Shown here: positions 6,301-18,300 of the stretch, piece by piece
Numbering within the stretch: position 1 is the stretch's first letter
Layout of the letters: each line of letters opens with the position of its first letter
Origin: Negaprion brevirostris
Taxonomy: Eukaryota
Direction of reading: 5' to 3'
DNA: 64,000 bases
Assembly (NCBI GenBank): GCA_030324005.1
Contig: JARDVH010000140.1
Coordinates: 30,862,470 to 30,926,469 of the forward strand
Notes under the pieces: generated by a model
What the model was told of the DNA's origin: nothing
Database searches by the model: none
What the model saw: the letters and a program-made list of their open reading frames with translations, nothing else
Translations under genes and position numbers: made by a program

Positions 6301-6360
6301 TTAGAGTTCTTCCAGAAAGGCCACTTGTGTTTTAGCAGTTACACTTTGTAGATTAAGCTG
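6301..6360 (-). CDS. nf2b: Merlin-like terminal coding exon (NF2 exon-17 equivalent): (Q)[18 protein letters not shown]
   Basis: Long polypyrimidine tract then cag|CAG| (NAGNAG; exon starts at 6360 or 6357); TAA at 6303-6301; resembles human isoform-1 LTLQSAKSRVAFFEEL. Confidence 0.93.
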   Translation of the reverse strand, partial: QLNLQSVTAKTQVAFLEEL

Positions 6361-9300
6361 CTGAATGAAAGGGGAAACAGAAAAAAAATATTGCTAATGT
6401 TATACAATTTTAAAATAGTTCACATACTTTCCACATGTGCAAGTATACCCAGGTTTCACTCGAGTATAACAATGTAACCTAGTATATATATGGCAAGCAA
6501 CAAAAACAAAATGCCAACACAAGTATAAATGATGTTCCAAAGTGCTATATAATTAATGGATTGGTTGTTGAAGTGCAATTATTTTGCNNNNNNNNNNNNN
6601 NNNNNNNNNNNNNNNNNNNNNNNNNNNNNNNNNNNNNNNNNNNNNNNNNNNNNNNNNNNNNNNNNNNNNNNNNNNNNNNNNNNNNNNGCTATATAATTAA
6701 TTGATTGTTTGTTGAAGTGCAATTATTTTGCACGTAAACTTGTAGTCAATTTATACACACGATAGTATCATAAAAAGCAATATAAGAAATAGTAATCCGT
6801 TTTAATGGTAACGATTGAGGAAAAAATGTTGGCTAGGACACAGGAAGAAAATTCCATGCTCTCTGTCCAACAACACAACTGTATCTTCTATGTCTGCCTG
6901 AACAGGCAGATGAAGTTTCAGCTTAATTTCTCATTCTAAAGGCAGCACCTCTGGCAATGCAGAATCTTCTCAGGACAACCCTCAAGAGCTATCCTAGTCT
7001 GAAGCCATAATCTTCTGATTCAGAGGTGCAAATATTACTGTAGAATCAACTGAGAACTTAAACCTGTATGTCCACGACTTCATTTAGCATGCTTTAGACC
7101 GAAGCGGCTCAAATTATTACCACAAGGTGGCCACATTTTATCTTTGGCACACTATGAGCTGCAATACTAAAATGAAATATTTTTCCAGTCAAATGAAAAC
7201 ATGATCCCTTGTACATGGTAACAAAACATTTGAAGCGCTATCACACAACTTCTAATTGAAGTATTAGATCTGATGAATATATCACACACAATGAAAACAT
7301 ACCACCTTTAGTGTGAACACTGGACAAATGTTCTCATTTACAAGACGAGATAAAACTTTCTGCATAGTGACAAGTCTAACTCTTTATAACTAAAATTAAT
7401 AGCTTAAAAACGCTTTGTACTTACCTTCTGCTAGCCACTTCAAGTTTTTGCTTTCCATTTGCCAAGCCTCCAGCAAACAGTGAGATTCAGGTGATGGAGG
7501 TGGTGAGGGGCAGTTGGTTGGAGGCAGCGAGAGGTGGTTGGCTGGAGGCAGCAGCAGTTGGGAGATTCCAGGTGGAAGTTGCGATTGAGTATTCGGGATA
7601 GCAGCGGCGAGTGCGAGATTCAGAGCGGAAGTGGCAAGCGGGAGGGTCAGGGGTAAAAGGTGTGAGCGGAAGGATCAGGGGTAGAGGATGCGAGCGGCAG
7701 GGTCAGGGGAAGAGGGCGCGAGCGGGAGGGTCAGGGATACAGGGCGCAAGTGGCACAGTCAGGGGTACAGGGAGTGAGCAGGAGGGTCAGAGGTAGGGGG
7801 CACGAGCAGGAGGGCCAGGGGTAGAGGGCGCGAGCAGGAGGATCAGGAATAGAGAGCTTGAGCAGGACGATCAGGGTTAGAGGGCTTGAGCGGGAGGGTC
7901 AGGGGTAGAAGGAGTGAGGGGAGGATTGGGGAGGAGGGAGCAATAAGGAGGGAGAGTCAGGGTTACAGGCAGTGAGTAGATGAGTCAGGTCAAGGCAGCA
8001 ATCAGGAAAGTCAGAGGGAAGGAGAAAGCAAGAATGTTGAGGGGGGAAAACCTGAANNNNNNNNNNNNNNNNNNNNNNNNNNNNNNNNNNNNNNNNNNNN
8101 NNNNNNNNNNNNNNNNNNNNNNNNNNNNNNNNNNNNNNNNNNNNNNNNNNNNNNNNNNNNNNNNNCTGACAGCTTATTGCTCGAGCGGGTTGTGGGGGAA
8201 CAGCACACAGAATTAATTAGTAGGACTGAAAGGGGAACCAGTAGGTATAGTATACGTGGATTTCCAAAAAGCAAATTTCACAAAATAATAATTTGCAAAA
8301 TAAGGTTGAGGTAATATATTAGCATCGATTTTGGTTAACAAAGAGTGAACACAAACGTTTTAAAGTTGATAGGCAGTGAATAGTGGAATGTCACAAATGT
8401 CAATGCTGGCACCTGAACTAGTTACACAATCTATATTTATGACTTAGAAGGAAGAGAGAATAATGTGTCAAGTTTTCTTATAATACTAAACCAGGTGGAA
8501 ACATAAGGTGTAGAGGGAACACAGACTCTGCAAAGAGGCATAGACAGGTTGGTGAGTAAACAGCAAGCTGGCAGATGGAGAATAAATAGGAAAATGTGAA
8601 CTTACTCACTTTGGCTGTAAGAATTTAAAAGCAGAATATCTTTTAAAGTATGAGAAACCTGTAAGTGGTAATGGTCAAAGAGACATTGGGTGCTTGTACA
8701 AGGAATGCACAGCTAGCATACAGCAAACAATTAGGAAGCCGGTTGGCCTTTCTCGCAAGGGGGCTGAAGTACGAGAATAAAGAAGCCTTGCTACAATTGT
8801 AAAGGGTTTTGGTGAGGCCACAGCTGGAATACTGTGATCAGGTTTGGTCTCCACATTTAAAGGATTTACTTACACTGGATGTGGTACAGTGAAGATTCAC
8901 TAAATTGGTCCCTGAGGTGAGGAGGTTGCCTTATGATGAGACTGAGTAATTTGGGCTTTTGTTCTCTGGAGTTTAGAAGAATGAGAGACTACCTCATTGA
9001 AATCTACAAAATTCGGAAGGGGCTTGACAGGGCGGATGCTGAGAGATTGTTTCTGCTGGTCAGGGAATNNNNNNNNNNNNNNNTCTCAGGATAAGGGACT
9101 GATTATTTAGGGCTCAAATGAGGAGAAATTACTTCACTCACAGGATTGTGAAGCTATAAACTTTTGCCCCCAAACCATTATGGATGCTTCTTTGCTGAAT
9201 ACATTTAAGCCTGGGATAGACAGATTTTTCTCAGGGATATTGGGATATTACAAACCACACAAAAATGAAAGTATGCTATTAGAATGCACTTTAAATGAGG

Positions 9301-15300: not shown

Positions 15301-18300
15301 ATGGCTGCTAAGATGTGCTAAAAATTCAATACATAGAACATAAGACAAATGAAGAAATGCTCAAAATTGCAAGCACAAAAAAAAACTCTTAAAAAGCGAC
15401 ACACAGAAAAGAAAATGTCAATATTTTGGCCATTTAATCAGGGCTGAAAACTAAAGAGATCTATTTTAAAGATGTGGAGGACAGCAGAATGAGGAGTCAA
15501 CCTAGGCATAGTTGGGCAACAGATGCCAGAGTGAGTTACAGTGGATGTGAGAGGGTGGAGTGTAGCATATCATCATAGATTGCCTTGCAGAAGTAGTTAC
15601 AAGCAGCAGCAGTAAAGCATCCATAAAACGAATAAAAAGCTTAAACTTATTTTGCAATGACTACATGACGCAAGAAAGAACTGCACAATGCATAATGTTG
15701 GCAACTTTAAAGCAATACTCAGGTTGGACTTTAGGGAGTCTTCAGTACCGCATAGTGGCCCCTTTCCTATATATTCATTAAACAAAAAACTCCACTTGTA
15801 TTCTTGAAATAATTTTTGAATTGTACATTAATACATAACTTTTTTTTTTTTTACAGAAGCACGATATATTTTGATCGTATACTACATTCAAAACAAAAAG
15901 AAAAACACTATACCAGTTTTTTAGTTTGGCAATGTGTACTTTGGGGGCAAAGCAATTAGTTTCATCTTAGTTCTGTGGTTTCATTTGACAGAGGTTCCTG
16001 AAATAGCAGTTGCATTACAAAGCTATGTTCATAGTGAAAAATCATTAGGTGATTGCCCTTTGAGTATAGCAGCCATGAAGGTGGTGCAGGAGACGCTCAA
16101 CTAAGATAATACTGAAAATGAGGGTCTATAATGAGGAGGCTGCTGCTCTTTTCATCAGAGCAGAGAAGGTTAAGAGGTGTTCAAAATAGGTAAGGGTTTT
16201 TAATAAGATAAAATCACTGAAAACTATTTCACCTGATCCACGAGTTAGTAACTAGACTAATAATTTAAACTAATAAACATAACTCACATGCTCTAACTTA
16301 GAGCTAGTGAAAGGATATAAAATTTAGGTGTACATATACAAGTACGTACTGCACACAAGACTTGCAACATATTAAAATGAATATTTAGTGACATTAATAT
16401 TCGTCGAAGTCAGCACATTATATGCTAAACGAGTGTAAAGGTAATATACCTGGAGATGACGCTGCAAGCATAACGTCGTATGATCAATTGGGTACCTTGA
16501 GCTTGGACCTAACAGTATCACATAAGCTCAAGAAAACAATAATCATTCCTCCACCCTAGACTCCAGAACAAGATTTTTATCATTAATCCACACTGAGTTA
16601 AATCTCTGGATATACCCCTTCCCCAAAGAGGAATGGTTCAACTGTGTACCCTGGACCCACTCAGAGCCAAACAACTGACTGTGACCAAACAATCCGCTGA
16701 TGGCTGTAGTTTCCCCTCACAGCCTGCTTCATTTCCCTTTTAACAGCAAGCTCCTAACCGTTTCCTATCCATAACACCAATTGGCTGTAATTGTTCTTCT
16801 CCAACAGCTGGCTGCTTCATGCCCAAATCTCCCTACTTCCAACAACCTGAATATTGAAGCTATATGCATGTATATAAGCGATAAATACCCACATTCATGA
16901 AAAAAAACTCACATTACTGAGAGGCGTGTAAGCATTTTCATCAAATTCCATATTCTCATTACTAGGGATGCCCATGTTAGCATGTCGTTCCTCCAGTTTC
17001 AGAGCTTCAATTTCAGTCTTTAGTTCCTTCAGCTGTTCTTGCAGGTGTTTGCTTTTCTCCATGTATTCCACACTAAGGAAACCGTAAACAATGAAAGCTA
17101 AGGATACTGTAAATGTCACTGTCTCTGCAAAATTTCCCAGTACGATTAAAGGAAATCTCTGACGCCTTTTTGCTAATTTGCAAGTTCCTGGTTCCATTAA
17201 TGCCCAAAGATAATATTGTAAATACTAAAAGTAAAATTAAATATGTTTTATAGCTAAACACAAGTTAAAGGTAAAAAGCACTTCAATAAATGAATCATTT
17301 TTAAATACACAGGAAGATCTCAGCATCTCTACCACAATGCTGTCAATTGCGTAGTCTTCACTTCAGTACCATAAAACCCAAATCATTGCCCAACATTTCC
17401 CGGACTTACTATAGGTTTGGTACCGACCACATTCCTCAAAGTTTGAGGGGTGGAATAATCAGTTAATGTCTGGTTCTGGAGACATTTATGAGCTAGTTGA
17501 ATAACTTAGGAGTTCCACCACTGAGTTCCTAGACACCATCCAAAAACTAGGTTTCAACGCTCAAAATGCTTACTGTGTTTTACTGTTTGCTAACTGCATT
17601 GCCAACAGATGGGATAAAACTACAGCAAATGCTTGAAGTAATTTAAAACTGGTTCCTGTCTGGGAACTCACCAAAGGGAGCACAATCTGAATATGAAGTT
17701 GAGGAAGTAACTCAATGAGATAGTGTCAGAGGGTCTTATCAGGCTTTGGATGGGCACAGTCAGCAGGAATAGGTCAATAGGGCAATAGGATGTTGTTAAG
17801 CAAGAGGTTTCAGTAACAGAACGCCAATAAATGTTATGATAGGACAGAAGCTGAGCGCACAGACTGAACAAATTAGCATGGGGAGAAAGCTAACTGTTGA
17901 AAAGACCAGGAATTATATTGAAAGCCCATTCATAGGAAAACTACAGTTTTGGAATAGAAAAGGCTCCATGGCATAAAGAAGAAAAAGACAAGCTTAATTT
18001 TCCTGAGTGAAGCCACTAGTTTCCTTTCGTTTTTTCACCAATCCATTCTAACAATTTAATATACGAGCAAATCCTAATTAATAAACTTGTATATCAGCAA
18101 TCAACACAGTGTGCCCGAGGTGGGAAACATTAACCAATTAATGATAGAGAATTTATATAAATTTGATTTTAATTAAACATTACACATCAAGTTAACAGTG
18201 ACCAGCTTGAGAAAGAAGTGTTAGATGAATTGAGATACAAAATAGTTCTGCTAGATGCAATGTTTTAAAAGCATTTTACAGCACTGTTCACAGTAAATCT

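What the first reader, a model, noticed from the sequence alone, without database searches (positions are those of the whole stretch)
6301..16913. Possible multi-exon C-terminal splice switch: an open exon-16 homolog plus two frame-compatible micro-exons
Seen: between exon 15 and the last exon lie three AG/GT-bounded units of 59 bp (phase 0-2, 16508-16450), 42 bp (phase 2-2, 11882-11841) and 70 bp (phase 2-0, 10170-10101). All are stop-free when chained. Including all three adds 57 aa ([57 protein letters not shown]) and still ends in VAFLEEL. Skipping the middle unit adds 43 aa. Splicing the 59-bp exon straight to the last exon frameshifts to ...VISSLIYKV*. Known: in mammalian NF2, exon 16 (PQAQGRRPICI*) carries a stop and creates isoform 2, which changes the head-to-tail interaction. 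Inference: the exon-16 switch predates the NF2/NF2-like duplication, and this paralog may have extended it into a variable acidic, Ser/Thr-rich linker ahead of the FERM-binding tail.
Basis: partly seen in the sequence, partly recalled or inferred. Interest (0 to 1): 0.75.

Follow-up and report, generated by a model that had tools for sequence, protein, structure and literature searches.

The report
Shark merlin's repeat-born alternative tail exon
This is the shark copy of the merlin-like gene nf2b, whose main message likely joins exon 15 straight to the last exon; the three proposed extra exons have no support as a spliced chain, while an overlooked exon inside a genomic repeat likely gives a short alternative tail, much as exon 16 does in human NF2.

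Summary
The three AG/GT units, their phases and the 57/43-aa arithmetic are as described, but this is not beyond chance: 78 candidates score as well and form 521 open three-exon chains. The gene is nf2b/merlin1 (99.5% identical to Mustelus). None of 17 elasmobranch nf2b proteins seen carries any of the three peptides, and the one long spliced contig from a near-identical organism leaves exon 15 without them. Unit 1 (16508-16450) may be a decayed exon-16 relic: rank 1 of 582 on a joint profile, but chance rates run from 0 to 149 of 500. The inference that the switch is old gains independent support: nf2b has an 11-aa stop tail in chimaera, sturgeons, coelacanth, frog, gecko and koala. The human-NF2 orthologue nf2a looks decayed in this genome.

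The parts
16913..17072 (-). nf2b exon 15 (160 nt, ends in phase 0)
   Evidence: tblastn with Carcharodon nf2b; spliced contigs in 3 of 3 runs laid, joint 17072>19198
16450..16508 (-). Unit 1, 59 nt: possible decayed exon-16 relic; open, no stop; no splicing shown
   Evidence: acceptor rank 100 of 586, donor 45 of 583; profile tests; single copy
12450..12533 (-).
   Evidence: 11 of 11 residues identical to the Mustelus X3 tail, 17 of 21 to Scyliorhinus torazame X1; rank 1 of 78, donor rank 2 of 583
12373..12819 (.). Interspersed repeat fragment that contains the stop exon; family not identified
   Evidence: 40 other places at 66-80% identity among 40 scored of 107 candidates; extent from 3 copies; alignment; no Rfam match
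11841..11882 (-). Unit 2, 42 nt: likely pseudo-exon; joined alone after exon 15 it starts with an in-frame TGA
   Evidence: rank 29 of 78; single copy
10101..10170 (-). Unit 3, 70 nt: likely pseudo-exon; purine-rich acceptor, strong donor
   Evidence: acceptor rank 332 of 586; 8-nt deletion just upstream of the acceptor in a relative (table 4); single copy
6301..6360 (-). Coding part of the last exon, tandem CAGCAG acceptor (6360 or 6357): (Q)[18 protein letters not shown]
   Evidence: 11 of 17 elasmobranch proteins use the 6357 form, 1 (Mustelus X1) the 6360 form
2516..6300 (-). Likely 3' UTR; AATAAA at 2450
   Evidence: inferred: 3842 contig letters beyond exon 15 would end at 2516 if joined at 6357; the same run holds 0.94 of the words of 2500-6400
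19198..54349 (-). nf2b exons 1-14 (start codon at 54349); full reading frame 588 aa

Best explanation
The gene is shark nf2b (merlin1): its main mRNA likely splices exon 15 straight to the last exon, units 2 and 3 are likely chance pseudo-exons, unit 1 is possibly a silent relic of exon 16, and a repeat-derived 84-nt stop exon at 12533-12450 likely supplies a minor short-tail isoform. Mechanism. Shown: the exon lies in a repeat, has the best splice-site score in the intron, and encodes 11 residues and a stop that match an annotated Mustelus isoform. Inferred: point changes in this repeat copy made a strong donor (absent from the two other copies aligned there), so the exon is sometimes included. 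Inferred: its stop, 48 nt before the last junction, would escape nonsense-mediated decay (50-55-nt rule, recalled). Inferred from human merlin: replacing the last 18 residues removes the terminal helix that docks on FERM lobe F3 and would loosen head-to-tail closure, as proposed for human isoform 2.
For: Identity and tree: 99.5% to Mustelus nf2b, 73-75% to nf2a; nf2a and nf2b clades split with 100/99 support. Tails of 17 elasmobranch nf2b proteins: 12 direct to the last exon, 2 skip exon 15, 2 the 12533 exon, 1 another tail, 0 units 1-3. A spliced 5669-nt contig (depth 26.9) from a run holding 0.94 of the UTR words passes exon 15 and goes on for 3842 letters with no piece on units 1-2 or the stop exon, and too little depth for unit 3 (0.54 against about 4.9); a 33-nt exon piece was laid in the same call, so 42-70-nt exons were within reach. 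Splice ranks and chain counts. Repeat origin. The skate tail also looks repeat-derived: 20 of 20 scored places match its residues at 56-73%, each alone not significant (E 0.3-3.2), and two of them share a DNA core. Role of the last helix: PMC6515277 passages; PMC4493278 passages.
Against: The stop exon was not seen spliced in any of the 3 runs laid; in one, a contig runs unspliced through it. Its support is two RefSeq predicted isoforms in other sharks whose read support I could not see. The junction into the last exon lay outside the stretch laid, so it is inferred from lengths. Only 15 of 43 members of the main protein cluster were listed, contigs drop rare forms, and tissues are unknown. 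The tail is not conserved (11 aa here and in Mustelus, 24 aa in Scyliorhinus), which fits noise as well as function. Unit 1 reaches 0, 3 and 5 of 500 in three of six joint-profile settings. The splice matrices rest on 15 sites each, and about 320 intron bases are N.
Confidence: 0.55

Rival explanations
1. No working switch: the gene makes one tail (plus a one-residue tandem-acceptor variant); the 12533 exon and the skate tail are low-level splicing noise in repeats that gene annotation picked up, and units 1-3 are unused.
For: No alternative exon spliced in 3 of 3 runs laid; the stop-exon tail differs in length between sharks and is replaced by an unrelated one in skate; only 2 of 17 proteins show it.
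Against: The same exon is annotated in two shark families and tops the splice ranking; an 11-aa stop tail at this junction is kept in nf2b from chimaera to koala, which suggests a use for a short tail.
Confidence: 0.24
2. Unit 1 is a living, diverged exon 16, included in some tissue; having no stop of its own it frameshifts the last exon and ends the protein in a 25-26-aa tail (...SLIYKV). Units 2 and 3 are not used.
For: Rank 1 of 582 AG-anchored peptides on the joint nf2a+nf2b profile in 6 of 6 settings; 0-31 of 500 simulations reach it on 9-10 residues; the next step with a gap aligns RRxxC with the amniote tail; single-copy DNA 404 nt after exon 15; donor matches the U1 consensus at 7 of 9.
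Against: On all 11 residues 89 and 149 of 500 simulations reach it, and its score (14.6) is below all 9 true tails (18.9-41.2); gapped test 35 of 60, DNA-distance test 25 of 100; unlike chimaera, coelacanth and sturgeon nf2b tails; another AG (12155) matches the sturgeon tail's first 5 residues as well as unit 1 matches the amniote tail; 0 of 17 proteins; in run X1 the intron contig leaves exon 15 with no break where unit 1 would branch.
Confidence: 0.17
3. One reading: units 1, 2 and 3 are chained in frame and insert a 43-57-aa acidic Ser/Thr-rich linker before the FERM-binding tail.
For: The chain is open and frame-restoring; units 2 and 3 have good donors (ranks 13 and 3 of 583); tetrapod merlin1 does carry a long C-terminal extension (PMC6978628).
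Against: 521 such triples exist at this score level; unit 3's acceptor scores below all 15 true acceptors; no likeness to six tetrapod extensions; 0 of 17 proteins, and no nf2b hit with an insert in the longer-length search; absent from the main contig.
Confidence: 0.04

Closest known systems
NF2 (merlin2, nf2a) exon 16 / isoform 2
   Same: A stop-bearing exon between exon 15 and the last exon replaces the FERM-binding tail with 11 residues (45-bp exon, PQAQGRRPICI; PMC4530865 passages). The 12533 exon also gives 11 residues and a stop near the last junction.
   Different: Other paralogue; the 12533 exon is 84 nt, lies in a repeat and shares no sequence with exon 16. Unit 1 shares QAQG but has no stop.
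nf2b / merlin1 11-aa stop tail (chimaera AGSHEAEIIYI, coelacanth AGHYDSEVVFI, sturgeons VGHYDSEVIYI, koala VQQRDSDVIYI, gecko VQQHKTDVIYI, frog VEKCDLDVIYI)
   Same: Same gene and, in the fishes, the same junction; co-occurs with the long tail in chimaera, sturgeon and paddlefish.
   Different: No intact copy in this intron or among 17 elasmobranch proteins; unit 1 resembles it at most in scattered positions.
RefSeq nf2b isoforms Mustelus asterias X3 (XP_078081135.1) and Scyliorhinus torazame X1 (XP_072325540.1)
   Same: Use the orthologue of the 12533 exon.
   Different: Predicted models; Scyliorhinus reads W where this genome has TGA, so its tail is 24 aa.
Exonisation of interspersed repeats (Alu-exon type; general knowledge, recalled)
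   Same: A repeat copy in an intron gains splice sites and gives a minor stop-bearing isoform.
   Different: Shark repeat of unidentified family; the stop sits close enough to the last junction that it would likely be translated.

Membership tests
nf2b / merlin1 | Full-length FERM-helix-CTD protein grouping with nf2b, not nf2a | tested here: met
   588 aa; 97.5-99.5% to elasmobranch nf2b, 73-75% to nf2a; tree
nf2b / merlin1 | Shark-type C-terminus PLxNLNLQSVxAK (PMC6978628 supplement) | tested here: met
NF2 exon-16-type cassette (unit 1) | Lies between exon 15 and last exon with AG/GT, entering in phase 0 | tested here: met
NF2 exon-16-type cassette (unit 1) | 11 codons ending I/V-x-I followed by a stop inside the exon | tested here: not met
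   open through all 59 nt; all 9 distinct true tails end so
NF2 exon-16-type cassette (unit 1) | Sequence homology to known exon-16 tails | tested here: inconclusive
   rank 1 of 582 but 0-149 of 500 simulations
NF2 exon-16-type cassette (unit 1) | Spliced into mRNA | tested here: inconclusive
   not in the main contig; 0 of 17 proteins; rare forms not visible
NF2 exon-16-type cassette (12533 exon) | Short reading frame and stop that replace the terminal helix | tested here: met
   11 aa + TGA
NF2 exon-16-type cassette (12533 exon) | Descent from exon 16 | tested here: not met
   lies in a repeat; not among the top matches to either tail type. Works like exon 16, is not exon 16
NF2 exon-16-type cassette (12533 exon) | Regulated, abundant inclusion | not testable with these tools
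   only contigs of 3 runs; annotated in two other sharks
Repeat exonisation | Exon lies inside a multi-copy element | tested here: met
Repeat exonisation | Element assigned to a named transposon family | not tested
   no repeat library on hand; Rfam blank
Conserved in-frame micro-exons (units 2, 3) | Frame-neutral alone, strong pyrimidine tract, peptide kept in relatives | tested here: not met
   unit 2 alone gives an immediate stop, unit 3 alone 3 aa and a stop; unit 3 tract 0.31; 0 of 17 proteins

The most novel reading that the evidence does not exclude
The short-tail switch is older than the merlin duplication and was kept in both paralogues; in this shark lineage nf2a decayed, the original nf2b exon 16 lost its stop and fell silent (unit 1), and the switch was rebuilt from repeats at least twice (sharks at 12533, skates with another repeat). 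The only merlin left would then still toggle its FERM-binding tail, through a newly born exon.
Probability: 0.18. Interest if true: 0.6.

Novelty: new variant of a known kind. Interest (0 to 1): 0.3.

Why it matters
Why merlin has two tails is unsettled (PMC4530865, PMC6515277 passages), and that review places the exon-16 tail only in lobe-finned fishes and tetrapods. An 11-aa stop tail in the other paralogue from chimaera to koala would move the switch back towards the base of jawed vertebrates. A shark that seems to have lost the NF2 orthologue and may have rebuilt the switch from a repeat would test whether loss of the terminal helix, not the tail's sequence, is what matters. The three-exon linker as proposed is most likely not real.

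Tried and rejected
No run was on record as RNA ('no RNA holder listed'); three proved spliced when laid, one (X17) could not be read. Lack of cover on units 1-3 and the stop exon, and the 60-nt hole over unit 1 in X1, are not taken as proof of absence. Only one lay was obtained, so the joint into the last exon and rare junctions remain unseen. Short Logan proteins (14 of 14 hits) gave one nf2b piece, an intron read-through. Scan for an intact nf2b-type tail in the intron: best mean score 9.3 against 32-59 between true tails. The AG at 12155 was considered as the lost exon and rejected (3 residues only; acceptor rank 155). My first estimate that QAQG after an AG was highly significant did not hold in simulation (6 of 200 on five residues chosen after the fact, 52 of 200 on eleven). 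Likeness of units 2-3 to the tetrapod merlin1 extension, seen by eye, failed; the 68-aa consensus in the paper's supplement was compared by eye only. One search timed out; one search used four misplaced exon boundaries and is replaced. Rfam: 0 matches. Earlier findings: none. Paper searches showed no paper on nf2b C-terminal splicing in sharks among the rows listed (20 of 119, 5 of 6, 10 of 30, 10 of 107, 0). No structure or complex job was sent: an 11-18-residue tail question would be answered by likeness to solved merlin.
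Full report
Gene. The window holds a whole merlin gene on the minus strand. Exon 15 matches human merlin in the PDB (E 2e-12) and, best of all, shark and ray proteins named nf2b. tblastn with Carcharodon nf2b placed all coding exons from 54349 to 6301; the joined frame is 588 aa, 99.5% identical to Mustelus nf2b, 92.7% to chimaera nf2b and 73-75% to nf2a/NF2, and falls on the nf2b side of a 100/99 split. 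This is merlin1 of PMC6978628 (passages; supplement part 1 and a search of it). The host is likely a carcharhiniform shark (inferred from identity).

Observation. They are single-copy DNA. But matrices trained on the gene's own 15 acceptors and 15 donors find 78 candidate exons at least as good as the weakest unit; units 2, 3 and 1 rank 29, 76 and 78, and the 78 give 7, 71 and 521 open frame-restoring chains of one, two and three exons (antisense control 5, 24, 60). An open three-exon chain is therefore expected. Unit 3's acceptor (-0.2) is below every true acceptor (1.1-10.4). Against my reading, the summed scores of all three touch the low end of the true exons, and the training set is small.

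Transcripts. No holder was on record as RNA, but 3 of 4 runs laid on 9200-20600 show spliced joints between exons 13, 14 and 15. X16, which holds 0.94 of the words of the UTR stretch, has one 5669-nt contig that covers exon 15 and continues for 3842 letters; it has no piece on unit 1, unit 2 or 12533-12450 (those bins are at depth 0) and the unit-3 bin has 0.54 where 4.9 would be expected. Joined at 6357 those letters would end at 2516, 66 nt before an AATAAA; the joint itself was outside the stretch, so it is inferred. In X4 the contig stops one unaligned letter past exon 15; since unit 1, the stop exon and the intron all begin with G, that letter is likely the C of the last exon, with a branch at the CAGCAG acceptor (inferred; Mustelus X1 uses the longer form). 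In X1 intron contigs run unspliced through units 2, 3 and 12533-12450. Tables were cut and contigs drop rare forms, so this shows the main form only.

Annotated relatives. Of 17 elasmobranch nf2b proteins from 13 species (15 of 43 members of the main cluster, plus 2), 12 go straight to the last exon, 2 skip exon 15 and end LTYKV, 2 end in a GW... tail, 1 (skate) in another tail, and none shows units 1-3. The GW tail is in the window at 12533, identical to Mustelus over 11 residues. With the donor at 12450 it is an 84-nt exon, first of 78 by score, whose stop lies 48 nt before the last junction. It lies in a repeat with at least 40 other copies; two copies aligned at the donor lack its GT, the third has a gap there. 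The skate tail also matches many places weakly, two of which share a DNA core, so it too is likely repeat-born.

The real nf2b short tail. nf2b proteins of chimaera, coelacanth, sturgeons and paddlefish carry an 11-residue tail right after exon 15 that differs from their intron read-through tails, and koala, gecko and frog merlin1 end in a related 11-mer. Like NF2 exon 16 (coelacanth, lungfish, amniotes) it has 11 residues and ends I/V-x-I, though the fish nf2b and nf2a tails score -2 to -8 against each other, so homology rests on place, length and ending, and I could not see the exon structure. A review limits the exon-16 tail to lobe-finned fishes and tetrapods (PMC6515277 passages); these tails suggest an older switch. 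No intact copy is in this intron; about 320 bases are N.

Unit 1. It is the top AG-anchored match to the amniote tail (rank 1 of 574), but 52 of 200 simulated introns do as well, 6 of 200 on the first five residues, 35 of 60 with gaps. On a joint profile of 3 nf2a and 6 nf2b tails it ranks 1 of 582 in all 6 settings, with 0, 3, 89, 5, 31 and 149 of 500 simulations; of the 30 settings tried, the 24 single-paralogue ones gave 66-500 of 500. A nucleotide-distance test gave 25 of 100. Its eleventh codon is CGA, one change from a stop. I put a relic of exon 16 at about even odds and present use at about one in six.

Mechanism. In merlin the C-terminal helices pack on FERM lobes F2 and F3 and compete with Lats1/2 (PMC4493278 passages); the last helix is missing from isoform 2, and whether that weakens closure is called unresolved; both mouse isoforms act as tumour suppressors (PMC4530865 title and passages). 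Skipping here gives the closing tail; including the 84-nt exon would give a protein without the last helix. Sequence, repeat origin and annotation in two sharks are shown; inclusion in this species, escape from decay and the effect on closure are inferred.

nf2a. A search with sevengill-shark nf2a found nf2b, other FERM loci and only three decayed exon pieces at G000:C133:18.75-18.76 Mb, in the right order, closer to nf2a than nf2b, one with an in-frame TGA. The assembly may be incomplete and these loci are rich in N. The supplement of PMC6978628 marks merlin2 as lost in whale shark, while its text says all vertebrates have it. PMC1315344 (passages) does not treat fish isoforms in the places shown. 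Supplements of the other papers were not read.

Verdict. The three-exon linker is very likely a chance reading. What is there is an ordinary nf2b with a likely minor, repeat-born stop exon already present in two RefSeq models, a possible exon-16 relic, and comparative hints of an old tail switch. New variant of a known kind; interest 0.3.

Noticed in passing
G000:C133:18752543-18759333 (L006, L007): Three decayed exon pieces closer to nf2a than nf2b, one with an in-frame stop; no intact nf2a found, so nf2b may be the only merlin here. Among chondrichthyan hits listed, nf2a appeared only in Callorhinchus, Heptranchias and Pristiophorus.
   Followed up: partly
proteins P0227-P0229, P0232, P0234, P0236, P0240, P0274, P0281, P0337: nf2b/merlin1 has a conserved 11-aa stop tail from chimaera to koala; in the four named tetrapod sequences with it (koala, gecko, two frogs) only this tail was seen. 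Huso P0224 splices from inside it to the last exon.
   Followed up: partly
window 6360/6357: Tandem CAGCAG acceptor; the longer form adds one Gln and is annotated in Mustelus X1.
   Followed up: partly
window 17072-16913: Exon 15 is 160 nt; skipping it frameshifts the last exon, annotated as isoform X3 ending LTYKV in Carcharodon and Cetorhinus.
   Followed up: no
window 19431-19198: Exon 14 is interrupted by a run of N; contigs of 3 of 3 runs join across it, so it is one exon.
   Followed up: yes
window 12799-13227 and 13834-14266: Old direct duplication of about 440 nt at 66% identity; one contig of a relative jumps from 13233 to 14458.
   Followed up: no
window 7637-7924: 28-bp GC-rich minisatellite, 10.3 copies.
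   Followed up: no
window about 4350-4030 and 2920-2600: A stretch of about 300 nt appears twice in the likely 3' UTR (seen by eye; could be an assembly duplication).
   Followed up: no
window 11172-11128, 13759-13709, 8658-8610: Other high-scoring candidate exons (17.3, 16.9, 16.5) with no support looked for.
   Followed up: no
protein cluster of P0180: Fish claudin-4-like proteins share a cluster with nf2b through a 1770-aa fused gene model; likely an annotation artefact of neighbouring genes.
   Followed up: no
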